Shown: piece by piece, positions 24,271-44,505 of the stretch
Numbering within the stretch: position 1 is the stretch's first letter
Layout of the letters: each line of letters starts with the position of its first letter
Source of the DNA: Bugula neritina
Taxonomy: Eukaryota; Animalia; Bryozoa
NCBI GenBank assembly: GCA_964035545.1
Contig: OZ037767.1
Span: 8,814,581 to 8,878,580 of the forward strand
DNA length: 64,000 bases
Direction of reading: 5' to 3'
The notes under the pieces: generated by a model
Seen by the model: only the letters and a program-made list of their open reading frames with translations
Databases searched by the model: none
What the model was told of the DNA's origin: nothing
Program-made: the position numbers and the translations under genes

Positions 24271-24934
24271 AATAAATGAAACTGTTATGAATAACATTAT
24301 CTTCAATCAGCTCTGACAAGCTACCTGTACACATCAAACATAATTATTATTATTATGCTCAAATATAAATATTCAGTCATAAACAATATATATAAATCAA
24401 TTATATCTGCCAGACGCTAACAAGTTTTCTGTTTATGTATTAAATATGTATTTTGCTATAACATAATTATCATATATATATGATTTTAACGAATAAAATA
24501 CATCAAGAAATAAAAGTGTTTGTGAGAAAAATGAAAAGAATTTTATTGTCTGGGCAACATTTGTTATGCTCTTGTGCTACTGCAAGCTCCTGGTTTCTTA
24601 TTCTCCCACATGTGAGAAGATAACCCTAAACTGGTCATAAAACGTACATCTAATGGAGAGATAACTTTCAATAAGCAACGTAAAAATATTAGTGTTTAAT
24701 ATGAAATAAGTCTAGCACATTACAAATAATTTATACTTTAACGGATTATGAAAAATGGTATATGGGTAATTTAGTGTAATATAACATCATAAACTAATAT
24801 AAGGGGTTTTCTTATTTTTAAACCAGTGTAGTTTGAGCATATCATGTAAAAAATATATAAAAATCTCTACTAGTAAGCTGTGCTCTAATCATGCAGTGAG
24901 CTATATGAGTAAATTAAAATATCATACCTACATA

Positions 24935-25190
24935 ATACGTATAATACACACTATACAGAGTGTTACATTATCATACGTATAATACACACTATACAGAGTG
25001 TTATATTACCATACGTATAATACACACTATACAGAGTGTTATATTATCATACGTATAATACACACTATACAGAGTGTTATATTACCATACGTATAATACA
25101 CACTATACAGAGTGTTATATTATTATACGTATAATACACACTATACAGAGTGTTATATTATCATACGTATAATACACACTATACAGAGTG
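24935..25190. repeat. 38-bp minisatellite, about 6.7 copies
   Basis: Unit CATACGTATAATACACACTATACAGAGTGTTATATTAT; TACGT recurs at 24936, 24974, 25012, 25050, 25088, 25126 and 25164. Confidence 0.97.
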
Positions 25191-26459
25191 ATAATTTGTA
25201 ATGTAATCAACAAAATACATGATATAGGCCTATATATAATATGTCAATATAAAATTATATTATATATAACTGAATTTGTACATTAGAACTATATGAAATT
25301 TTGAGGTCTGTAGTTTTCCCACAAGCTTTAATCTTATGCCAACCTACATGTTGCTAAATTTTCTCATTAGAATTTTTGATTTTGCCCGCTTGAAGAGTTG
25401 TGGAGTAAAGGATTGATGGTTAAAGTTATAAGTCTACAGTTCAAAACTTCAACTAACGCTGGTTGAAATACCGTTTAAAATCTGTGACATAGATTTTTTC
25501 TGTCAATTTCAAATTTTGTGTAATTAAATCCGCCATTATTAGAAAAGCTATCCCTTGTATTATAACCCATAGGCGGGACCTGTGTTAATTTGATTATAGT
25601 AGTTGCTTGAACTAAATGTTAAATGTGTATAAATTTACAAGTTTAGATTAAATGGCCAGGGGTCATTTAAATAATATGTGTATACAAGCCTATGTTGTGT
25701 GTGTAGAGACAACATAGCCAAACTTCAACGATTGGGAGCTAAATTTGGTATTTTGCTCTGTCATGGTTTGAGGTTTCAGGACTGTAGCTTATATATATAG
25801 TGAGTTACGGAAGGAGCACTGTGTAAAATATACATATGTACGAGTATAAGATATTACTAAATAACATACATGAATATAATACTTACACACACAGGCACTC
25901 ACGCATGCACACACTAATATATTATTATATAACATAATACAATATAATATAATAAAATGAAATATAACGAAATATAATATAATATTTGCCCATGCGAATA
26001 GAAACACATAATAAGTAAAATGCAAATATATAAAATATTACTTAATGATTATTTATATGTTCCATTGAAGCTATGTATGAATATGAGCAAATTACGTGCC
26101 ATATGTGATAATGAAAATTGTTGTGTTATTTATTGTATTGAGTTCATACACCTTGCAGTTTAAAGGGTAAATTGGACACCTCAGTTTTGAAAATAACAAA
26201 CAGACTTTATTATTATTACACACCATCTACAATAAAAGGTCAAAGTTATATTGTAGCATGAATGACTTTGATATATCAGCCAATCAGTGATCTGTTAGCT
26301 CATGCGTATAACTGATAATGCAGTGTTATATAATAACAGTAAGTCTCAACTAGTTCTTTTAGTGCAATTGACTACTAGCAGTGTAGACAGGTTAGTTATT
26401 CAGTTAGAGCTCAGCTACTCTACATCAAATCAGAAGAATTAAACTATGGTGACAGCAGA

Positions 26460-30654: not shown

Positions 30655-33485
30655 ATTATTTATAGTAATTACTCTTTGATTTAATAAACATAAAACCAAA
30701 GTAGGGCCTAAATATGAATAGTAAATCGGAATCAAAATATAATTCTATAATGGCGTATAGCAGCCAACAATAATTTCTATATTTATATATTCAGTATATT
30801 TTGTTATAATTTCATTGTCAGGAAACCTATACTATTTAGATGATGACCCTATATATATACCTACAAACTTATGGTCATTACAAAATGTCTTCTTATAGGT
30901 AATTGTAGCTATCAAAATCATGCTGGTTGTTAGAAAATGCTGTCGAAATAAACTAATATTATTTTGTGAAAAAATAAAGATTCAAAACAATTACGCAATG
31001 TTTTTGTATTGTTGAGTGCTTATAGCAGACACTCCAAGACGTAATTCGATATTAAAAACTTCCTGACACACTTATCTTATGACATATTATATTTTTGTGC
31101 ATTCAAGCAGTTTTGTTACATATCAAATCTTTTGCACACCTGTGCCAAATTAACTTTGGGATTTCTAATTTGATTACTTGCTAGCAACACTTTTGTTTGG
31201 CTCTGCTTAGAGCAGCATTATAAAACTAACAGATTTAATATGTAGTTGTAATAGAGTTAAAATCTATGATAGAATAAATACAGTTTCACTAAACTGTAGA
31301 TATGCAAAGGTTTAAAAAGTTGCTTTATCAAATTATAAAACTCTTAAGTTGTACACAATCACTCCTTATAATAGCAAATAACAGGAAAATAAGTATGACT
31401 ATATGCACTGGCATGTAATATACGTCTTACTCAGCTACTTCCTTAGCCTGGGAAACAACCTGTGTTGGCAATAAGTTGTTATATATGAAATGTAACACAA
31501 TGCTTAAACAGTATGAAACTAAGGCTAGAAAGTTATGAGATGCAAACAATATAGTTTGGAGGAGGGTACGTAGCTCAACAAATAACATTTTGCTTTAATA
31601 CTTATGGTCTGTGATGTTGGACAATTCATCTCACATCAACTCATTACAAAATACTCTGAATTTTATTTTACTTGAGTAATGTTTTGTTTATGGCATTTCA
31701 AGTTATTATTCTGTTTATACTTCATATAGTTGACTTAAAATGAGTATAGCACTTAGCAGACTGTAGGTAGACAATAATGTTTACTATAGTCACAGTGTGT
31801 AACTGTATTATAATATGGAAAAATAATAGAGGGAAGCATTTAGTAACACATGAAATACATGTTATTGAATCAGGACAAAAAATAAAAAGGCTCCTAATAA
31901 AGCTAGCTGAACAGTAAACAGAGACATGATAACAGTTAGTTGATAGCACATTTATCTTTATATAAAAACATGTAATAACTGAACAAGGTGAATGACCTTA
32001 TGAAATTCCAGCATAGTGATTGTCTATAAATAAACCTGTTATCAAAGTAGCTTCCCTGTGAGTACGATTTTAGTACACAAGCTGTTTTATTGCTACTGTA
32101 ACAAACATTATATATCTCAACTATAATTATGTTGTTTTTTGATTGATTGATTGATTGATTTATTTATTGCATATCACAGACATGACAACACATTGCGAAA
32201 TTCATATTTACAACTGGCTTTGTTATCTAGATTGTCAATTGCTGTTGTCTAGATTTGCTTCCCAATGAATTTAAAGTTTAAAATAACAAATTGATTATGT
32301 CTAGCTGGTAACTACCCATTAATATTTCACAATGAGGCTATTTTTATCTATAGACAAGCTTGACTTAAAATATGCAGTTTGATCTGAGTTTAATAGAATC
32401 ATTCATGCATACACATACAGGCATTCAAGTTAAGTAGATAGACTGGCCCATATCACTGAGTTTGACCTTTACCCTGCTTTCATGTCTCAATTTAGCTGCA
32501 ATTGAACATATCAATACATGGGAGGACATTAATAACCTTTGGTGGCAAAAGCATTTAGAACAGTCTAACCTGAATTCACTATTTATAGATAATGTTCAAG
32601 TAACTGCCCATCACTATTGTGCAATGAGGCTATTTTCATCTAGGCAAACTTGCATGATATACTAGACTCATGTAGACAGAAACATATTATAGCTGTAACA
32701 AGCTACCTGTACACATAAAACATAACTATTATAAGGCTCAAATGTGAATATTTAATCATAAACAATGTGTATAACTCAATGATATCTGCCAGACACTAAT
32801 AACTTTTCTGTTTGTGTATTCAATATGTATTTTGCTATAACATAGTTAGCACACATATATATATGCATTTTAACGAAAATACATCAAGAAATGACAGTTT
32901 TTTTTGAGAAAATTGAAAAGAATGCTATTGTTTGGGCAATAATTGTTATGCTCTTGTGCTACTGCAAGCTCCTGGGTTCTTTATTTTCCCACATGTGAGA
33001 AGATAACCCTAAACTAATCATAAGAAGTACAACATCTAATGGAGGGATAACTCTTAATAGGAAATGTAAAAATATCAGTTTTTAATATGAAATAAGTCTA
33101 GCACATTACAAATACTTTATACTATAACAGATTATGGAAAATGGCATATGGCATAATTTAGTATTTTATAACACCATAAGCTAATATAAGTGGTTTTCTT
33201 ATTTTTAAACCAGTGAATTTTGTGCTTGTCATGTAAATGGTTTCATCTCACTTAGACGTTTCCCACTTGGACGCTTCGTTTATTTTGGTACAATATATAT
33301 AGTAATATACATAATATATTACTGTTGCATTTACTGCTAAACATGAAATAAGCTACCAAGCCAGCTATTTACTTTAACTCAATATTAATTTAGCTACAGT
33401 TTATTTTATTCAGAATAACAGAATAAAATGCACAAATGCATTTTATGGTATATCACATACTGCTATATTACAACTTCACTCTGCC

Positions 33486-33878
33486 GTCAAATTACATTAT
33501 CCAGGTTACTACTTTTTGGGGCCCGGTACCAAATTAAGTAAGCGTCTTAACGATGACACGATGCCTAAATAATAGAGCATACCGGTAGATCAAGATGATG
33601 TGATAGCTTATCGCCACGATTTGTGCTACGCGATAAATAAGGACGGGAAGACTAGACATTCTGTACGCAATAAAAATATGTTAGATTAACTAAAGGCTAT
33701 ACCAAATCCTACACCCGCTGAACAACGACACAGCCATATTGCCGAGACAATAATAGGAATGAAAAAGCGCTTAGGGTGGGTACTTAAAAAAAGATTTCGC
33801 TGGACAGATGAATTAGCCGAAGAACTTCGTAAACCGGTGCAAAAAATATTTCGTAAAAGAGGAGTCTGGGTATCATGA
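33486..33878 (+). pseudogene. Polinton/adintovirus parvovirus-type phospholipase A2 domain running into an integrase-like N-terminus (3 internal stops)
   Basis: One frame reads VKLHYPGYYFLGPGTKLSKRL...AYRHDLCYA (GPG Ca-loop and HDxxY motifs), then RWTDELAEELRKPVQKIFRKRGVWV, which resembles the LHKP.R..F.RR.V leader of Polinton integrases. Confidence 0.8.
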
Positions 33879-34530
33879 TTTCTTTGATAAATAATGGTAT
33901 CACATATTTATTTAAAAGTGTTAAATATCAGATTAACGGAAAAGACCTCGAGTATATAAATAACCCGAGGAACGCTCTGACCATAATGGGTCTTCTAACT
34001 TATCCCGATGACTACGGCAAGTCAAGAGGCCTCAACCAATTATGGTCAAAAGACACCACTGATGCTGCAGCTGCTGCTAACTTGAGTTTTGCGGCTCGTC
34101 AAGCCTATCTTATACAAAAGCCTGATCCTAAGGGTACTTTTAGTATTAAGGTGGATCTCAGACATTTGCTCAGTTCTACCGATGATTGTGACACAGCTTT
34201 GTATGGCATAAAGCATCAACTGACTTTAGTTCGTGATACCAATAATAATGCCATTTTCAGAGCGAATGGCGTTGATGCCAAAAAAGTGGAACTAAGCAAG
34301 ATTTCTTGGTGGGTACTGCACGTAATGCTTAGATTTGAAATGAAAGTCCAGCTTAACAAGATTATGGAATTCGAATTCCAATAATGTATAGGTCAAGATG
34401 GTGCGATAGTATCTCAGTGCCTTAAACTACTAGCTTTATTTGGCGTTTGGGCTCTAGAGAGATAATGAAAAACCTTGCTACATCATTGTAAGTTTTTAGA
34501 CGAATAAGACCGAAAACCAGGAAACGAATT
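33875..34530 (+). pseudogene. Polinton/adintovirus-like major capsid protein, internal fragment
   Basis: NNGITYLFKSVKYQINGKDLEYINNP...MGLLTYPDDY...GLNQLWSKDT...PKGTFS...YGIKHQLTLVR...SKISWW, continuing after a frameshift as YRSR.CDSISVP.TTSFIWRLG; recognised from memory of Polinton double jelly-roll capsids and supported by context. Confidence 0.7.
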
Positions 34531-35134
34531 TATTTTACCAATAACCACCAATTGCTTTTTTTTGAGCTCCGATGATCCACCAAACTTGTATACTGTACTT
34601 ATTTATCATAGGTATTTATAATAAGATTTTACTGATGCCCACGCAAATGGACTAGATCCTGAGTTTTCAGAATTCAACGGTGGGGAACCACCCAAAGATG
34701 ATCCATCAGGAGGTTTACGACTCGTAAATGACTCTGAACATAATAACGTGAGACTATAGTCTTTATTTGCGTTGATAGTTTCTGATATAGAAATATTGAT
34801 GTACGAAACACTCTGTACATCACCTCGAATGGTAAAATAATTAACGAAAAGATATCTTTTCTCAGTAAGTAGTGTATCACCCCTTATCGTTAATAGCAAC
34901 TTTTTGTCTGTCCAATATAGAGAGTGATTCTTAAATATGTTTTCACAACTTAATTTTATCAACGCGCGAGTTAACTCTATTTTCTCATCTACTATAATAT
35001 TGAAAATTAAATTGGCAATTAGGTCCTACATGATACTTGAATTCATTAATCACCACGAGTCTCGTAACGTAATTTCTCTCCTTTGTCAACTGTATACGAT
35101 ACTTGTATACGAACTTGTATACGATACTTGTTTA

Positions 35135-35542
35135 TTAAAATAACGTATTTATAACTTTCTGAGGTCTTTTACCATCAGACAACTCTTTGAGCCGGTACAA
35201 ACATAAATGACCACAAATAACCGTGTCGGGTCTTTGAACTTTTTCCGTGTTATGCGCTACCTCGGGTCCTAAACATAACACCGACTTTCGAGGAGGGTGT
35301 AAGCCCAAACTATCAAAATAGTACTTTTGGTCATTATCTTTATACCATGCTGTCCGGTGAGTACCACCGCCTAGGATATTATCTAAATTTAAAATTCCCT
35401 ATTTTTTTTGCAACTTACCCTGTAAAGCGTCTCTAGAAAAAGGCTCCTTAAAGTTGAGAATTTTTAACTTTTTCAATGCTGACTTGAGGTCAACATCTGT
35501 GAGAGGTTTATTTAGAAGAATTATATCGTGTATTTGTATCAT
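35135..35542 (-). pseudogene. Adenain-like cysteine protease of Polinton (one internal stop)
   Basis: MIQIHDIILLNKPLTDVDL...GILNLD...GGGTHRTAWYK...YYFDSLG...VQRPDTVICGHLCLY: His, Asp, Gln and Cys catalytic-type motifs in order; missing from the ORF track because of the TAG. Confidence 0.85.
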
Positions 35543-35663
35543 TTATTTAATTTGTTTTGCTCGCCGTGGTGCGACACGCTTTGTTAACTTTCGAAACGCA
35601 AGAATCAAAAGTTATTTCACAATCTTACCGAAAATTGTGCATATAATGAAAAACAATTTAGCC

Positions 35664-37854
35664 TCATTCATATTTGTTATATCCATAAAGAATTGTATTT
35701 AGTCTGTCTTCCAGTATATTTCTTTTATCATCCTCGGCAGACAAGGTTACTTTGTTTAGAGTTTCAGCGTACATCGTATGTTTATGACTTCTTAAAACAT
35801 TCATCGTGCGATGCTGGCCGCATTGTGTCTGAAGGCATTCTTGATAGTAGTCAAATGTTATACATTTGTTTCGTGTTGTTTTGTTAATTCTTTTGCACTT
35901 TTTCTTTTATTGAGTCATCCATTTTGTAAAAGTACAACTTGGTGTGAAGACCTACAAACTCAATGATTTGTTTACTGTCGGTTTCATCTTTAAACATACC
36001 TATTTCTATACCCGATTTATGGCCTTTTAAATAATTACTTGTATCAAACATAGACTCTACATCTTGAAATATTTCTTTATAGAGATCATCAGTCTATATG
36101 TGATACATTAGGTTATCCGTGTCTGTAAACAACAACTGCGCATTTGTACCAAACTTTGGTTTGATGTAGCTATAGTGAAAATCATACGTTAATGTTTTGC
36201 TGATGTCCAAGATTGCCGCTCCTAAATATACGGGTTTGCCAAACTTTAGTTTTGTTACACTCATGTGAACGGCTACGAGATTATCAGAAAATATTGCCTA
36301 GCTTTTGTAGTTTAATTGAGCTGTTAATTTTTTAGCTTGACTTTCTTCGCTAATGAGTTTAACATCGATTCGATTACGAATATTTTCCATTGTCTTACCA
36401 AACACCGAGTTATTCATGAGCTTGAAAAAGTCTTTTTAAAAAATCATTTTGAGCTTGAGCTCGCAGCTCCGTATTTTTGTCTATGTAGTCTTTAAGTTTA
36501 TCAGATTTGTCAAAAGTTATGCCTCTATGAATCTTTGTAAGTTTTAAGCCATATTTAAGGCAGTGCTTTAGCGCCTTGTATTGTAGAACATTATTTTTCT
36601 TATCTCTTAAATTAAGAATTAATTTTTCCACTACGTTAATGATTTGCATTTCCGGGCAAAATGAATGATCTTTATGAAGGTCGCGTAGAATGTTCGGATA
36701 CTCCAAATACACTTCTAAAAAGCTAGGTGGTAAAGTTCCACCTTTGTCTAGGTTTTGACAATGTTCATCGGTCATCCACTTAACTTTGCCGACCGGTACC
36801 TTTTGAGACATAGCCCACTCGTATAAATAGTCATACGGAGAAACTCCTTTTCTTAATAAATCTAATTGCTTCTTGAGATAATATTTTCTCAAGTGTTTAA
36901 AGTCGTCACCCTTTAGATTCTCAACTAATTTTGCTAACGAAGAACTCATAAATTTGAATGTGTCTAAAAGTCAAATTTCTCGTTTAACTTCAATTACTTT
37001 TTTACCCCCTTTGTCAATAAATTCATCTACTACCAGTTGTTTACTAAAAGATAGGTACTTTTCTTCGTTGTTCGGGATACAGGAAATTTTACCGTTCCTT
37101 AAATTCTTAATGAACAGGTGAGCATCGTATCCGGACAAGTGGTGAATAAACACCGGATAAAATTTCAGAATCTTATAATTCAGATTGCACTTATTATGAA
37201 CCACTCCTCGAAAGCCTCTAGTTAAATGGCAATGATCTCATACTTTGTCGTCGCCTAATTTTTTTTGCATATGTGAAAAATCTTAGCTACTCAAAACGAT
37301 AAATTCTCTTTTGGTGTGCGTTTGATAGTTTTTGAAAATTTATGCTTTTTATACAGTTGTCTAACTTCGTTTTCTATATTTTCCACAAACAAAAATATTT
37401 TGCATTTACATGACTATTTACTTGTGAGCTAAGCAGTCTGCTCAAATTTTTAATGCATGCGTATAGTGACTACCGTTCTCATTGGTTATAAGAAGAAAAT
37501 TTACCATTTTCCCTTGTTTTTTAGATAGATTTCACGGGTACACTACTGCACCATCCCATGTCAGAACATTTACCGCAATACAAGAGTTAGCTTCTTCAAA
37601 AGGTTTAATAGATTTTTTATCAGCTTGGAATTCAACGCATTTCCACGATACCGTGTCAACGTACCCCCTGTATTTAAATATTCTTTCCCTATTATCATCG
37701 GCTGAAAAGAGTGATGCCAAAACGGCCCATTTAAAGGATTCTACATCTTTTTTTTTTGGTTTTATCACGCTTTTTGTGTTTTTTATTTTTTTCCGGAAGA
37801 TCAATCCACGATGATCATCTTAGAGGTTGATATTTGTCAATGTTAATTCCCATT
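35664..37854 (-). pseudogene. Protein-primed family B DNA polymerase (Polinton pPolB), C-terminal part
   Basis: FKWAVLA, DHCHLT..FRG..HNKCNL, HHLSGYDAHL (exonuclease), RKGVSPYDY, LYEWAMSQ, FKLMNNSVFGKTMEN (motif B), KPVYLGAAILDISK, FTDTDN (motif C), KVTLSAEDDKR; stops, frameshifts and an internal deletion. Confidence 0.92.
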
Positions 37855-38162
37855 TGCTATGTATTGAACTAGCCTTGTCAATACACCACATAGATGCATA
37901 TTATGACATACCACATTTTATGTGCTGGGTTACTTTTTATTCTAATGTCTATTTGTTTAAACTCATTATATACAGTTTTTTGCCATATCAATATACAAGC
38001 CAGTTGTTATTCTGTCACTGTTTATCTACATGTATTTTTATGTCAGTTACTTGTTAGCTTCAATACAATACAGTCATACATTCTACTCTACAGCCAATCT
38101 TACTTATACGTGCTTAATCTTACTGTTTACTCTTGTTTAACATAAATAACAAGAACACAACA
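37855..38162 (+). repeat. 5' LTR
   Basis: No difference from 42279-42586 seen by eye. Confidence 0.97.
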
Positions 38163-38164
38163 AC

Positions 38165-38182
38165 TGGTGTCAGAAGTAGGAT
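38165..38182 (+). promoter_or_regulatory. Primer binding site, tRNA-Leu type
   Basis: TGGTGTCAGAAGTAGGAT, 2 nt after the LTR; 17/18 match to the complement of the tRNA-Leu(CAG/CAA) 3' end as recalled (TGGTGTCAGAAGTGGGAT). Confidence 0.85.
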
Positions 38183-38205
38183 AAATACAACCATATCATT
38201 TTGAA

Positions 38206-41200
38206 ATGGAGGAAGTTATAAAACAACTTGTAACAACAATGCAGCAACAACAGCAGCAGCAGATGGAGCAATTCGCTCAAATACTGGGACAATTTACTAC
38301 AGCTGTAAAGCCTGGTGAACCTGCACAAAATAAATCTGTAACTGTGACTAGATTTGACTCTTATGACAGAGACAAGGAATCATGGACTCAGTATTTACAG
38401 CGGCTCAATCAACACTTTACCGTTTACAACGTAAGTGACAGTGAACAAAAACGAGCTTGCTTACTTTCATGGATTGGCTCAGAATGTTATGAATTGCTGA
38501 CAAAACTGTATGGCTCGGAGGACATAACTACCATGTCGTTCGATAGTCTAGCAGGTAAGCTTAGCACACATTTTATTGAAACAAAACATGTGCAAGCAGC
38601 TAGATATCAGTTTTATAACTGTAAAATGAAACCTAACCAGTCATACTCAGATTGGGCAGCTGATTTACGGGGTTTAGCTCGTAACTGCAATTTTACCTGT
38701 AAAAAGGAAGACTGTGGTGAAAGTTATGTTGATGATCAAATTCGTGACATAATTATTAAAGAAACTCCACATGCTGATGTACGTAGACAATGCTTATTGG
38801 ATCCAGATCCTACACTGGAAAATGTGTTAAAGAAGGCAGCTACATACATTCAAACAGTAGAAACTGATAAAGTTTTGAAGGGTGAGACCTCTACACCTGT
38901 TACCACAAATCAAATGTCCTCAACATACAAACGTCAAAACAAAGGTAGTCAGGGCAAGAGACCACAATTTCACAAGTCTGAAAACCAGACTGCTATGCCA
39001 ACACAGCCTTCCAAGTTGAAATCGTGTCCACAATGCTACATTAGCCACGATCGTAAACAATGTCCTCACCGTAACAAACAATGTAAGCTGTGCAACAAAA
39101 CAGGACATATTTCTAGCGTCTGCAAAACTTCATCAAAATCAAGTGGGAACAACTCTCACTTCGTAGAAGAATCTTCAAGTAGTGTTTACAATATATATGA
39201 ACGCAAGGGGAAACAAATATGGATTAACACTACTGTGAACAACAAACAAACACAATTTCAGTGGGACACAGGCGCTACTTGTTCTATGGTAGGGAACAAA
39301 GGCTACAAAGCCCTAGGCTCTCCACCATATCAACAGACAGACACGACCCTTCATTCATATGGAAATACCGCTATGCAGGTACGTGGTGAATGCTATGTAA
39401 CAGTAACCATTGGTCAGACTACAAAAAACAATCTTCGATTATTAATAGTAGACTCAGATGAAGGTGTCAACTTACTGGGTGTAGACTGGAGTGACAGTTT
39501 TGGACTATCACAACAGGGTCTATCTGCTGTAGACAGTGACACCGAGGTTACTAACGCAGTACACAATGTTGATACCAAGGTCAAAGTTCTCACAACAAAA
39601 TATCCCGATGTTTTCAAACCTGGAATAGGACATTGTAAAACATTTAAAGTACCAATTTACCTCAAATCAGAACATAAACCTTGTTTTTCTAAACCTAGAG
39701 AAATCCCCTATTCTCAACATGAGGCCACTAGGGCTGAATTAAACAGGCTTGAAGCTGAAGGTGTCATACAACGTATTAACTTCAGTAACTGGGCCGCTCC
39801 TATAGTAGTGGTTACCAAACCGTCTGGCAAAGTTCGCATCTGTGGAGATTTCAAGCGACTCAATCAGTGCATCTCCATAGATCAGCATCCACTACCAAAA
39901 CTGGATGATTTAATGAACAGGCTTAGAGGAGGTAAATTCTTCACCAAACTTGACTTGGCTGATGCTTACTTACAACTTGAGCTAGAAGATGATGCCAAAC
40001 AGCTGTGTGTGATAAACACTCCATTCGGATTATACCAATATAATAGAATGTGCTTTGGAATTGCCCCTGGTCCAGCTCAGTTTCAACGGTGTATGGATAC
40101 CTTGACTCAAAAATTACCAGGAGTTGCTGCATACCTTGATGATTTAATCATTACTGGTAAAACGGAGGAAGAACACTGGACTAATCTGACAAACCTGCTT
40201 TCAACACTTCAAGAGCATGGTTTTCGAATACGATTAGACAAGTGTGAATTCTTCAAGCACTCTGTTGAGTATCTGGGTCACACCATCGACAAGGATGGCA
40301 AACGACCAACAGCTGCTTCCATGGCAGCTCTCTCTCAATTACCTCGACCACAGGACTTGCACCAACTGCAAGCATTTCTAGGAAAGGTTAACTACTATGG
40401 GGGCTTTATCTCTAATCTTGCGGATAAAGCAGCTCCACTTTACAAGCTCCTCAAGAATGATACCACATTCACATGGTCAAATGAATGTGAACAAGCCTTT
40501 ACCCAGCTGAAGAATAGCATTATCAATGCTACTAGCCTGACACACTATGATGAGACAAAACCCCTAATTCTTGCAGCCGATGCGTCATCCTATGGATTAG
40601 GAGTTGTTCTCTCGCAGGATACTGATCAGGGAGAAGTTCCAGTGGCTTACGCTTCAAAAACATTGACTGACACTCAAAAGAACTACTCTCAGATTGAACA
40701 TGAAGCTCTCTCTATTATATATGGTGTGACCAAGTTCAGACAATTCCTATATGGACGACATTTTACGCTAGTCACAGACCATGAGCCTCTCACTACTATT
40801 TTTGCACCAGGCAAAAATATTCCAACTTTAACAGCACAGCGTTTACAACGCTGGGCTCTCACTCTAATGGGTTTCCAGTTTACTATCAGGTACAAGAAGA
40901 CCTCCCAACATGGGAATGCTGATTGTCTTTCGAGGTTACCATTTGGTCCTGATAGCAATTTTGACCGGATCGAGCAGCAGGACAACAAGGAGACATCCCA
41001 TGCAATACAAGAGCAAATATTTACATCACCTGTTGCTGGATACAATGAGGTCAGACAGGAAACTGTCAAAGATCAACACCTTCAACGTGTCATAACATGG
41101 ATTCAGCAAGGTTGGCCAGTCACAAAACTAGATGACAAAGAACTGGGCACTTTCTGGATTCACCGTGACTCCCTGCAACTTGAACAAGGTGTCTTGTTGT

Positions 41201-42249
41201 TGATACGCGAACACACAAGTCGTGTAGTTATACCTCGTTCACTTCAATGCAGAATACTAGACACACTTCATTCTTCACACTGGGGTGTAGTCAAGGTAAA
41301 GCAACTAGCTTGCCGCTATGTGTGGTGGAGCACCATCAACACGGATATAGAGCTAGCCATGAAATCTTGCGAAGTATGCCAGGAGTCAGCAGCTGCTCCA
41401 GACCAGAAGTTTCAAAGCTGGCCCAAGACAGACAAGCCATGGGAACGCATACATCTAGATTTTGCTGGACCTTTTAGAGGAAAAATGTGGCTTATCTGCA
41501 TTGATGCTTGTTCAAAATTTCCATATATTGGACGCATGGAAATAGGGCAGACAACTTCTCGCCAAACATTACAAGTATTAAAAGATATCTTTGCTATAGA
41601 AGGTGTACCTGCTACTATAGTTACAGATAATGGCCCACAGTTTTCCAGCCAGGAATTTACTAATTTCTGCAACAGTTTCCACATCAACCATGTCTTGTCA
41701 CCTCCATACCACCCACCTTCAAATGGTGAAGCTGAACGATTTGTCAGAACTTTTAAAAGCTCTGTGGACAAGAATTGTGAGGGAGGAGCATCTCTAGACG
41801 AGAGTATCAGACTTACATTAGCATCATACAGAACCATTCCACATCCTGCTTTGGAATGGAAAACACCTGCAGAAGTCCTGCATGGCCGCCAGCCCAGGGG
41901 CTTACTATCCCTTCTCCAACCTACTAATCACAAATACCCTAAACATGACAAGCCACAGACAACACAGTTCACTATTGACTCACTAGTGTACGCTCGTAAC
42001 TACAGTACTGGTCCAAAGTGGATCCCAGGAAGTATTATATCAAAACAAGGAAATGCTATCTACATAGTACAAACAGACAGTGGCAACTGGAAGAGGCATG
42101 CTAATCAGCTTCAAATTCGCCTGCCATCTACAAATATAAACAAATCAGTGGTACCCAACACACCCCAAGCTGATAATAATATTGTCCATCCTCATGAGAG
42201 GCGCTATCCAACCAGAGAGCGCAGACAGCCAGATTGGTACAAACCATAA
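38206..42249 (+). CDS. Gag-Pol polyprotein, 1347 aa (Gypsy, K02A2.6/Mag-like)
   Basis: Zinc knuckles (CPQC..H...C; CKLCNKTGHISSVC), protease WDTGAT, RT YLDD, RNase H ADASSYGLG, integrase HHCC plus LDF/TDNG/AER; PR-RT-RH-IN order. Confidence 0.98.
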   Translation: MEEVIKQLVTTMQQQQQQQMEQFAQILGQFTTAVKPGEPAQNKSVTVTRFDSYDRDKESWTQYLQRLNQHFTVYNVSDSEQKRACLLSWIGSECYELLTKLYGSEDITTMSFDSLAGKLSTHFIETKHVQAARYQFYNCKMKPNQSYSDWAADLRGLARNCNFTCKKEDCGESYVDDQIRDIIIKETPHADVRRQCLLDPDPTLENVLKKAATYIQTVETDKVLKGETSTPVTTNQMSSTYKRQNKGSQGKRPQFHKSENQTAMPTQPSKLKSCPQCYISHDRKQCPHRNKQCKLCNKTGHISSVCKTSSKSSGNNSHFVEESSSSVYNIYERKGKQIWINTTVNNKQTQFQWDTGATCSMVGNKGYKALGSPPYQQTDTTLHSYGNTAMQVRGECYVTVTIGQTTKNNLRLLIVDSDEGVNLLGVDWSDSFGLSQQGLSAVDSDTEVTNAVHNVDTKVKVLTTKYPDVFKPGIGHCKTFKVPIYLKSEHKPCFSKPREIPYSQHEATRAELNRLEAEGVIQRINFSNWAAPIVVVTKPSGKVRICGDFKRLNQCISIDQHPLPKLDDLMNRLRGGKFFTKLDLADAYLQLELEDDAKQLCVINTPFGLYQYNRMCFGIAPGPAQFQRCMDTLTQKLPGVAAYLDDLIITGKTEEEHWTNLTNLLSTLQEHGFRIRLDKCEFFKHSVEYLGHTIDKDGKRPTAASMAALSQLPRPQDLHQLQAFLGKVNYYGGFISNLADKAAPLYKLLKNDTTFTWSNECEQAFTQLKNSIINATSLTHYDETKPLILAADASSYGLGVVLSQDTDQGEVPVAYASKTLTDTQKNYSQIEHEALSIIYGVTKFRQFLYGRHFTLVTDHEPLTTIFAPGKNIPTLTAQRLQRWALTLMGFQFTIRYKKTSQHGNADCLSRLPFGPDSNFDRIEQQDNKETSHAIQEQIFTSPVAGYNEVRQETVKDQHLQRVITWIQQGWPVTKLDDKELGTFWIHRDSLQLEQGVLLLIREHTSRVVIPRSLQCRILDTLHSSHWGVVKVKQLACRYVWWSTINTDIELAMKSCEVCQESAAAPDQKFQSWPKTDKPWERIHLDFAGPFRGKMWLICIDACSKFPYIGRMEIGQTTSRQTLQVLKDIFAIEGVPATIVTDNGPQFSSQEFTNFCNSFHINHVLSPPYHPPSNGEAERFVRTFKSSVDKNCEGGASLDESIRLTLASYRTIPHPALEWKTPAEVLHGRQPRGLLSLLQPTNHKYPKHDKPQTTQFTIDSLVYARNYSTGPKWIPGSIISKQGNAIYIVQTDSGNWKRHANQLQIRLPSTNINKSVVPNTPQADNNIVHPHERRYPTRERRQPDWYKP

Positions 42250-42278
42250 CTCTTAAGTCTAAATTTGTGAGGGAGGAG

Positions 42279-42586
42279 TGCTATGTATTGAACTAGCCTT
42301 GTCAATACACCACATAGATGCATATTATGACATACCACATTTTATGTGCTGGGTTACTTTTTATTCTAATGTCTATTTGTTTAAACTCATTATATACAGT
42401 TTTTTGCCATATCAATATACAAGCCAGTTGTTATTCTGTCACTGTTTATCTACATGTATTTTTATGTCAGTTACTTGTTAGCTTCAATACAATACAGTCA
42501 TACATTCTACTCTACAGCCAATCTTACTTATACGTGCTTAATCTTACTGTTTACTCTTGTTTAACATAAATAACAAGAACACAACA
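42279..42586 (+). repeat. 3' LTR, preceded by polypurine tract GAGGGAGGAG (42269-42278)
   Basis: Direct repeat of 37855-38162. Confidence 0.97.
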
Positions 42587-43260
42587 CCATTCTTACGATA
42601 GATTTAAATATCCAGTTGCTCCCTCTTGCATTAAGCGCGGCTAAATTTTTTTGCTTTTTCCATCATCACGTCATACAATTCAGAGGCATCTTTAGACTCT
42701 AATACAATTTCAAAACTTGATAGAAATGGCATAATTTCTAAAATAGTTTCACCAGTATTTATATTAATTTTTTCCATCTCACAAAATAAAAATATTTAAA
42801 CTTTTATAGAAGATTTTAACAATGTAAACATTTTTGATTTAATAATTTGACAAATGACTCGAGATTGCGCTTTGGTAAACCCTGAATCTCGTAGGTTTGA
42901 AACCAATTACCTCTAGCGGCTTGCTCTTTTAACACGGGCTTGATTTCAGGTTGATTATACAATGCCATAATTTTTTCCTTAAATGATTTTATAACCGGAT
43001 CTATGGCTTTTAGTGTGGGTACATAACTCGTAATCCACTTCTCTAAGTCATCTATTTTTTCTTTGGCTTTAGTCATCATATTTCTTTTACTATGCTTTAC
43101 GGCTTGTGGTATTAGCGGAGCTTGTTCAACATTGGGAACCGGCTCATCCATAATATTTGCAGGAGTCAATAGTTGTACAAGTTCAGCCTTTTAAGTTGAG
43201 AGTATTCTTTTTAGGCCTCTCCGCTTAGCCAAGGCCTTGAGGTCCTTGACCGTTGAAAAG
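42587..43260 (-). pseudogene. pPolB N-terminal part, separated from the rest by the Gypsy insertion
   Basis: Removing the Gypsy element and one TSD restores ARGSNWIFKSIVRM-GINIDKYQPLR*SSWIDLP; starts with a Rho_N/HeH-like TVKDLKALAKRRGL...KAELVQLL. Confidence 0.8.
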
Positions 43261-43728
43261 TGTTTATTATATAAAAATTCTTTAGGTATATCAAAATCAA
43301 TTTCTATATAATAAAATGGATAGAACTAAGAAACATTTTTTTTCAATGAGGTTCATTGCACAGGCTGCCGATTAGCACAGGAATCAACCGGTCCTAAGAG
43401 CGCTTGCCCATTGTACAGCTCTCTCCATTTATTATAAAAAAGTTCTTTTAAACTATGGGAAATGATTTACACAAACATTACTACTCATTTACATGACTAG
43501 TCGTAACACTGCTAGGTCAGTTGCTATCAAGAGTTAGCTCAATTGCTAATACTATACAACTGTAAGGCATTGCTGTAATTTCTATCACTAGTATCTCGAT
43601 ACATAGAGCATTGCTGTATATAGAGACTAGATATTTAATGTAAATTATACTGCACACTGCTCGACTCTCATGCGTGCACGCCTTGACTGTGAAGTGGTCC
43701 TGATTCATTTTTAGAGTTGTCTCATGCG

Positions 43729-43886
43729 TGCACAGATTCCTGTATTTTGTGTAAAAGTGAGCTAGAAAAGTGAGCCAGAACCATAAAATAAATTTATTTA
43801 TTTTTGGAGTTGTCCCTACCCCTCAAAGCATGCACAGGTTCCTGTATTTTGTGTAAAAGTGAGCTAGAAAAGTGAGCCAGAACCAT
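43729..43886. repeat. Pair of 56-bp direct repeats near the putative Polinton terminus
   Basis: 43729-43784 and 43831-43886 differ at one base; followed by GTTCTGCTACT ending at 43901. Confidence 0.9.
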
Positions 43887-44505
43887 CAAAGTTCTGCTAC
43901 TTAAGCTAAATAATAACATAAAATACATATATTACACTTAAATCTATAAATGTCGTTCAAGTGGGAAGCGTCCATGTGGGAATCATCTAAGTGGGATGAC
44001 ACCCATGTAAATAAATATAAATATTTACTAGTATGCTGTGCTGTAATCATGCAGTGTGCTATGAGTAAATTAAAATATCATCTACATATTTTTATTATTG
44101 CAAAAGTTGGAGTAAAGGATTGATAGCTAAAGTTATAAGTCTATTGTACAAAACTTCAACCAGCGCTGATTGAAATACCATTTAAAATCTGTGACATATA
44201 TTTTCTTCTGTCAATTTCAAATTTGATTTGATTATAGTAGTTGCTTGAACTAAATTTCAAATGTCTATAAATTTACAAGTTTAGATTAAATGGCCAGGGG
44301 TCATTTAAAGAGTATGTGTATACAAGCCTGTGTTGTGTGTGTAGAGACAACATAGCCAAACTTCAACGATTGGGAGCTAAATTTGGTATTCTGCTCTGTT
44401 ATGATTTGAGGTTTCAGGACCGTAGCTTATATAGTGAGTTACGGAGGGAGCACTGTAGAAAATATACGTTTGTATAACATATACTAAATAAGGTATATGT
44501 ATATA

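What the first reader, a model, noticed from the sequence alone, without database searches (positions are those of the whole stretch)
33230..44012. Three-layer nested element: Mutator-like TIR shell carrying Polinton/adintovirus genes, split by a young Gypsy
Seen: 39-bp TIRs, a perfect 9-bp TSD (CATGTAAAT) and an empty site in the paralogous unit (~24843) delimit 10,765 bp, about 6.0 kb without the Gypsy. I found no transposase inside, only PLA2/integrase N-terminus, capsid, protease and pPolB remnants. Known: 9-bp TSDs with G...C ends typify MULEs, whereas Polintons make 6-bp TSDs and start with AG. Inference: either a Pack-MULE-like element moves virus-derived cargo as a unit, which would be unusual in an animal, or a Polinton landed in a small MITE and then decayed in place.
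Basis: partly seen in the sequence, partly recalled or inferred. Interest (0 to 1): 0.85.

Follow-up and report, generated by a model that had tools for sequence, protein, structure and literature searches.

The report
Decayed Polinton nested in small transposon
In a bryozoan-like animal's cytochrome P450 gene cluster, a short DNA transposon holds the broken remains of a Polinton virus that is itself split by a young retrotransposon; this is likely an ordinary pile-up of three insertions that decayed in place, though a single move of the whole package is not excluded.

Summary
The anatomy is confirmed: exact 9-bp TSD, TIRs 34/39 identical, empty paralogous site, broken PLA2/integrase, capsid, protease-like and pPolB genes, and a Gypsy with identical LTRs and a 5-bp TSD. 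The Pack-MULE reading is not supported. No assembly is held, so junctions were tested with contigs of one public run. The shell is a high-copy family whose other members have other flanks and another interior. Polinton-side contigs stop exactly at 43901, an AGT-type Polinton end, so the right junction is the virus's own terminus. The left junction is a break inside the PLA2 gene, one of at least five large deletions. One internal segment lies on a single contig at single-locus depth, so the composite has not multiplied. Best reading (0.7): a Polinton integrated into a non-autonomous MULE-like (Merlin not excluded) element, decayed by deletion, then Gypsy landed. Against this, two rough clocks put cargo decay (about 7-9%) above the age ceiling of the site (about 5-6%), with touching intervals, and no contig showed this locus's own right junction. 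One cut-and-paste move of the nested package therefore stays open (0.2).

The parts
33230..33238 (.). left 9-bp target-site duplication
   Evidence: exact copy of 44004-44012
33239..33481 (+). left arm of the non-autonomous DNA-transposon shell; TIR 33239-33277 with two 15-bp repeats
   Evidence: summed contig depth 5593 in bin 33284-33667 against about 100-135 on single long contigs; right edge uncertain by about 5 bp
33482..33875 (+). Polinton PLA2 gene lacking its start, running into the integrase N-terminus; 3 stops; catalytic core of integrase absent
   Evidence: PF08398; aa 60-197 of a 378-aa relative ORF with PLA2 and rve domains
33875..34529 (+). major capsid fragment, aa 75-295 of 424, two frame changes, 2 stops
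34530..35137 (.). unassigned stretch inside the Polinton remnant; holds the segment seen on one contig only
   Evidence: no hit to ORFs of 80 related loci, Pfam or the Atlas; bin 34820-35203 depth 107.2
35138..35539 (-). adenain-like protease remnant, 1 stop
   Evidence: 48% to relative ORF, E 8e-38; protease label weak
35679..37854 (-). pPolB, middle and C-terminal part, several stops and frame changes, two large internal deletions
37855..42586 (+). young Gypsy LTR retrotransposon: LTRs 37855-38162 and 42279-42586, ORF 38185-42249, 5-bp TSD CCATT on both sides
   Evidence: a contig joint skips exactly 4737 bp
42592..43301 (-). pPolB N-terminal part, broken
   Evidence: tblastn E 1e-9; weak SAP-like hit E 0.0075
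43302..43901 (-). non-coding Polinton end with an internal ~90-bp duplication (43703-43788, 43796-43890); terminus at 43901, 5 of 6 letters matching the (AGT)2 end motif
   Evidence: family contigs stop at 43901; motif from PMC8097293
43902..44003 (+). right arm of the shell; TIR 43965-44003, three 15-bp repeats
   Evidence: summed depth up to 24,962; 9 contigs leave into unlike flanks behind 44003
44004..44012 (.). right 9-bp target-site duplication
24843..24851 (.). empty site in the first copy of the ~8.4-kb tandem cytochrome P450 duplication

Best explanation
This is a three-layer nest, likely built and decayed at this site: a short non-autonomous DNA transposon with a 9-bp TSD, likely MULE-type, inserted first, a Polinton/Alpha-adintovirus likely then integrated by its own end about 100 bp inside the right TIR, and an intact Gypsy sits inside its polymerase gene. 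Shown: the TSDs, TIRs, empty site, broken genes, Gypsy boundaries, and that other copies of shell and Polinton part from this locus at the junctions. Inferred: the order shell, Polinton, deletions, Gypsy; integration by the Polinton's integrase (its 6-bp TSD cannot be checked because the other end is gone); loss of the other Polinton end by the same kind of large deletion that cut the cargo in at least four other places. The package has no known function and no transposase; it could only move if a transposase acted in trans.
For: Right junction: of 40 pieces laid on 43836-43965, 8 are listed; 3 Polinton-side pieces stop exactly at 43901, 3 contigs have loose letters behind it, shell-side pieces start at 43905-43912, and 4 contigs carry another interior before 43905; the longest listed piece is 63 bp and none crosses the junction. 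The end matches 5 of 6 letters of the published (AGT)2 motif. Shell is high-copy: summed depth up to 24,962 against 564-939 on the Polinton side; 9 contigs leave at 44003 with agreement 0.47, as expected for unrelated flanks (0.44-0.52). Left junction: 2 contigs of another Polinton copy end at about 33484, computed from their from_end values, where PLA2 homology stops. Bin 34820-35203 has summed depth 107.2, equal to one 1,344-bp contig with 0 differences; other long contigs lie at 100-136. Deletions: integrase aa 197 abuts capsid aa 75, capsid stops at aa 295, two gaps in pPolB, plus the lost end with ATPase and minor capsid (no hit for these or 7 other ORFs of a complete relative). Pairwise differences to other copies are similar for Polinton end (16 of 186) and shell (26 of 229) in the listed pieces. 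A perfect TSD pair survives 4-6% decay with probability 0.33-0.48. [quoted passage not shown]
Against: Clocks: the site is younger than the tandem duplication, half-distance 4.8% (4.1-5.6; 173 of 1930 sites) or about 6% from the adjacent left block (62 of 536). Cargo stops, 12 in 1,088 codons, give 6.6% (3.4-11.5) under an AT-biased model (P 0.17 at 4.8%) and 9.0% (4.7-15.8) without AT bias (P 0.03). At capsid columns invariant in five relatives the window differs at 12 of 62, an intact relative at 1 of 62, about 9% (4.8-16.4). Both point estimates exceed the ceiling. This locus's own right-junction contig was not listed, so the filter hides junction contigs; the tool says depth is no copy number and a hole proves nothing. 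Agreement 0.70 of the 3 loose ends behind 43901 lies above my model for unrelated flanks (0.52-0.67) and near two-alike (0.71-0.82), so there may be only two other flanks and the family end may lie a few bases further on. One run only.
Confidence: 0.7

Rival explanations
1. The nest formed elsewhere, decayed, and was then moved here once (or a few times) as a unit by the shell's transposase acting in trans; the Gypsy came afterwards.
For: Both TIRs with their 15-bp repeats survive; TSD is perfect; cargo clocks (6.6-9%) exceed the site's ceiling (4.8-6%); a cut-and-paste move leaves one copy, so single-locus depth does not exclude it. Non-autonomous Muta1 derivatives in a mosquito carry mixed internal sequence (PMC5225508).
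Against: No second copy of either junction among listed pieces; intervals of the clocks overlap the ceiling; gene conversion between tandem P450 units (5-12% across blocks) or a Polinton already defective on arrival would give the same excess; only 4 of 281 animal Pack-TIRs (1.4%) were multicopy (PMC8277862).
Confidence: 0.2
2. The cargo was copied or ligated into a break in the resident shell (gap filling or end capture of a linear viral genome), not integrated by the Polinton integrase.
For: Only one Polinton end is present and no 6-bp TSD pair can be shown; transposition-independent gap filling explains most single-copy animal Pack-TIRs (PMC8277862).
Against: The right junction falls on the Polinton end, unlikely for a random template switch; the cargo has four further large deletions, so loss of the other end needs no special cause; no parental copy with the same deletions was seen (tables cut).
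Confidence: 0.07
3. An amplified Pack-MULE-like family that carries Polinton genes as regular cargo.
For: Shell ends and TSD are intact; filter may hide contigs.
Against: Internal segment on one contig at single-locus depth; other shell copies have another interior; all cargo genes are broken.
Confidence: 0.03

Closest known systems
Degraded endogenous Polinton/Maverick, Alpha-adintovirus type (PLA2X-bearing virion module; PMC8502044, passages read)
   Same: pPolB, double-jelly-roll capsid, adenain-like protease, integrase start, parvovirus-like PLA2, AGT-type end; capsid 79-80% identical to unnamed intact proteins and about 50% to Watersipora subatra proteins
   Different: 5.7 kb left against 16.9 kb for a complete relative; one end, no ATPase or minor capsid, no TSD pair; capsid and pPolB/protease face each other, an order seen in 0 of 29 mapped distant relatives
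Non-autonomous MULE/Foldback derivatives such as those of Aedes Muta1 and Muta5 (PMC5225508, passages read)
   Same: 9-bp TSD, 15-bp subterminal tandem repeats in the TIR, many copies with other interiors
   Different: clear TIR only 39 bp with 2-3 repeats; no transposase seen; one TSD only could be read
Merlin (PMC8101967, passages read)
   Same: 5'-GG ends, 8-9-bp TSD, TIRs 24-462 bp (one family has 39-bp TIRs with a 9-bp TSD)
   Different: no DDE_Tnp_IS1595 here; repeats lie within the TIR, as in MULEs
Pack-MULEs and animal Pack-TIRs (PMC8277862, passages read)
   Same: foreign sequence between TIRs with a TSD; single copy like most animal cases
   Different: Pack-TIRs are defined by non-TE filler; here the filler is a mobile element ending at its own terminus, and no extra transposed copies are shown
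Nested insertions in MULEs (PMC3903597, abstract read)
   Same: element within element, LTR retrotransposon as the youngest layer
   Different: middle layer is a Polinton; host is an animal

Membership tests
Polinton/Maverick (adintovirus) | protein-primed PolB | tested here: met
   broken remnant
Polinton/Maverick (adintovirus) | retroviral-type integrase | tested here: inconclusive
   only the N-terminal ~30 aa remain; they align to relatives whose ORF has rve
Polinton/Maverick (adintovirus) | double-jelly-roll capsid and protease | tested here: met
   PF21738; protease by 48% match to relative, family label weak
Polinton/Maverick (adintovirus) | packaging ATPase and minor capsid | tested here: not met
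   no tblastn hit in the element; read as loss, so this is a remnant, not an intact member
Polinton/Maverick (adintovirus) | TIRs with (AGT)2 or (AG)3 ends and 6-bp TSD | tested here: inconclusive
   one end, 5 of 6 letters; no second end (best inverted score 32, shuffles mean 36), so no TSD pair
Alpha-adintovirus module | PLA2X gene | tested here: met
   PF08398 E 3.8e-7; PMC8502044; pX tail not tested
MULE (shell) | 8-10-bp TSD | tested here: met
   9 bp at this locus only
MULE (shell) | long TIRs, often with 9-15-bp subterminal repeats | tested here: inconclusive
   15-bp repeats present; clear TIR only 39 bp, weaker likeness beyond
MULE (shell) | MULE DDE transposase in the family | not testable with these tools
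   none inside; no assembly held
Merlin (shell) | 5'-GG ends and 8-9-bp TSD | tested here: met
Merlin (shell) | IS1595-type transposase in the family | not testable with these tools
Pack-MULE / multicopy Pack-TIR | same cargo junctions at several loci with different TSDs | tested here: not met
   one run, cut tables, filter caveat
Pack-MULE / Pack-TIR | filler is captured non-TE sequence | tested here: not met
   filler is a Polinton ending at its own terminus
Gypsy LTR retrotransposon | LTRs TG..CA, TSD, protease-RT-RNaseH-integrase order | tested here: met

The most novel reading that the evidence does not exclude
A MULE-type transposase moved a 6-kb package of decayed Polinton virus genes as one unit into this P450 cluster, so that endogenous virus DNA was relocated by an unrelated cut-and-paste transposon in an animal.
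Probability: 0.2. Interest if true: 0.55.

Novelty: new member of a known kind. Interest (0 to 1): 0.22.

Why it matters
As read here it is a tidy dated nest: it shows a high-copy 9-bp-TSD transposon family, a Polinton family and an active-looking Gypsy family in a bryozoan-like genome, and gives their order at one site. That is useful for annotation but not new biology. If the package had moved as a unit, it would show that DNA transposons can ferry endogenous virus relics between loci in animals, which would upset dating of such relics from their flanks. My two searches for such a case listed no paper whose title or abstract start describes one; these are word searches of an open-access library and I saw only listings, plus passages of one hit.

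Tried and rejected
Whole-genome BLASTN: no assembly held. TIR pattern in metagenome contigs: 0 matches. Capsid relatives in viral contigs: none confirmed. Shell or Polinton-end DNA against 80 related loci: no hit better than E 0.4. Second Polinton end inside the left part: none above shuffles. Identity of 34530-35137: no hit. Earlier scan notes: nothing in three look-ups. Absence of any contig across 43901/43902 is not used as proof, since this locus's own contig is missing too. A 5-bp microhomology at the left junction (33482-33486) was noticed by eye but the 5-mer occurs 29 times in the window and it was not confirmed; not used. The stop clock with the 71% transition share (11%) was set aside because those differences include selected coding changes among copies; host flanks give 55%. 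The pPolB N-terminal stretch (8 stops in a poor alignment) and the two short pieces next to the Gypsy were left out of the stop count. Chance pairing of two unrelated ends was rejected by the TSD and the empty site. Literature on transposons of the host genus: nothing relevant in 10 listings. Supplements were not read; lists of Polinton or MULE families there may bear on family names.
Full report
Observation. The element runs 33239-44003 between two exact copies of CATGTAAAT. Its TIRs match at 34 of 39 and carry a 15-bp repeat, two copies left and three right. The first copy of an ~8.4-kb tandem cytochrome P450 duplication has the empty site at 24843-24851. A P450 exon is 87-93% identical to four Bugula neritina proteins, the only 4 hits among 14 candidates, so the host is likely that bryozoan or a close relative.

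Inner layer. The Gypsy spans 37855-42586, with 308-bp LTRs that are identical, one open 1,354-aa ORF with protease, RT, RNase H and integrase, and a CCATT duplication. Contigs of run X1 match it at about 99% with depth near 1,100-1,500, and one contig skips exactly 4,737 bp, the empty Polinton site. It is the youngest layer.

Middle layer. 5,683 bp of Polinton remain. On the + strand: PLA2 without its start running into the integrase start, then capsid aa 75-295 of 424. On the - strand: pPolB and a protease-like gene. In 26 of 27 related loci that hold both, PLA2/integrase lies upstream of the capsid on the same strand with other sequence between (29 of 80 loci had three or more markers), so their abutting here marks a deletion. 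Counting the lost end, the capsid tail and two gaps in pPolB, there are at least five large deletions. ATPase and minor capsid are gone. PLA2 marks the Alpha-adintovirus virion module (PMC8502044, passages).

Junctions. No assembly is held; one public run holds the DNA. On 43836-43965, 40 pieces were laid and 8 listed. Three Polinton-side pieces end exactly at 43901, with loose letters behind it in three contigs; shell pieces begin at 43905-43912 and four contigs have another shared interior before 43905; summed depth jumps from under 1,000 to about 25,000. The end reads like the (AGT)2 Maverick motif at 5 of 6 letters (PMC8097293, passages). So the right junction is a Polinton end, as integration would leave, not a random capture point. 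At the left, contigs of another Polinton copy end at about 33484, where PLA2 homology stops. Behind 44003 nine contigs run into unrelated flanks. Bin 34820-35203 lies on a single contig with no differences at depth 107, like other long contigs, so the package has not multiplied, though two half-depth copies cannot be ruled out. Limits: tables are cut, depth is a rough guide, and this locus's own right-junction contig was not listed.

Age. The duplication caps time in place at about 4.8% per lineage (4.1-5.6), or about 6% from the nearest block. Stops give 6.6% (3.4-11.5) with AT-biased mutation and 9.0% without; invariant capsid columns give about 9% (4.8-16.4). This leans towards cargo older than its site, but the intervals touch, the P450 blocks vary from 5 to 12%, which suggests conversion (inference), and the Polinton may have arrived defective. 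Listed pieces differ from other copies by 16 of 186 at the Polinton end and 26 of 229 in the shell, about 4-6% per lineage if the others are as old, which fits decay in place. A perfect TSD is expected 33-48% of the time at that age.

Shell family. A 9-bp TSD and 15-bp repeats in the TIR fit MULEs such as Aedes Muta5 (PMC5225508, passages). GG ends with 8-9-bp TSDs also define Merlin (PMC8101967, passages). Without a transposase I put MULE at about 70%.

Verdict. Most likely a nest formed in place: shell, then Polinton, then deletions, then Gypsy (0.7). One move of the package in trans remains possible (0.2); gap filling (0.07) and an amplified Pack-MULE-like family (0.03) are weak. Animal Pack-TIRs are known and nearly all single-copy (PMC8277862, passages), degraded Polintons are the norm, and nesting in MULEs is common (PMC3903597, abstract). 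Interest is low unless the move is shown. The dating check against a family consensus was left out, so the age question stays open.

Noticed in passing
window 1900-61800: Tandem and inverted cluster of cytochrome P450 gene units, 75-95% alike, with uneven divergence along the youngest duplication (5-12%), which may reflect gene conversion.
   Followed up: partly
window 43951 to 33263 (joint): One contig at depth 678 reads right-arm shell sequence followed by left-arm sequence on the same strand; possibly head-to-tail shell copies elsewhere in the genome.
   Followed up: no
window 34770-35330 (joint): Another Polinton copy joins 34770 to 35330, lacking 559 bp, which suggests the unassigned stretch next to the protease belongs to the family.
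   Followed up: no
window 34606-35025, minus strand: 139-codon open frame downstream of the protease with no match in Pfam, the Atlas or related loci.
   Followed up: partly
window 37814-42598 (joints): Three contigs join across the Gypsy site; one is the exact empty site. Could be other Polinton copies or an allele of this locus without the Gypsy.
   Followed up: no
window 32700-44480: CpG is depleted in the host flanks (observed/expected 0.09 and 0.45) but not in the Polinton coding remnants (0.8-1.3).
   Followed up: no
window 24894-25235: 38-bp tandem repeat of about 9 copies inserted just right of the empty paralogous site.
   Followed up: no
L070 1-16929: Complete-looking 16.9-kb Polinton with ~1,086-bp TIRs and integrase, PLA2, ATPase, capsid, pPolB and protease genes.
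   Followed up: partly
L050 4243-13504: A capsid-bearing stretch of only 9.3 kb between 425-bp inverted repeats, possibly a short Polinton derivative.
   Followed up: no
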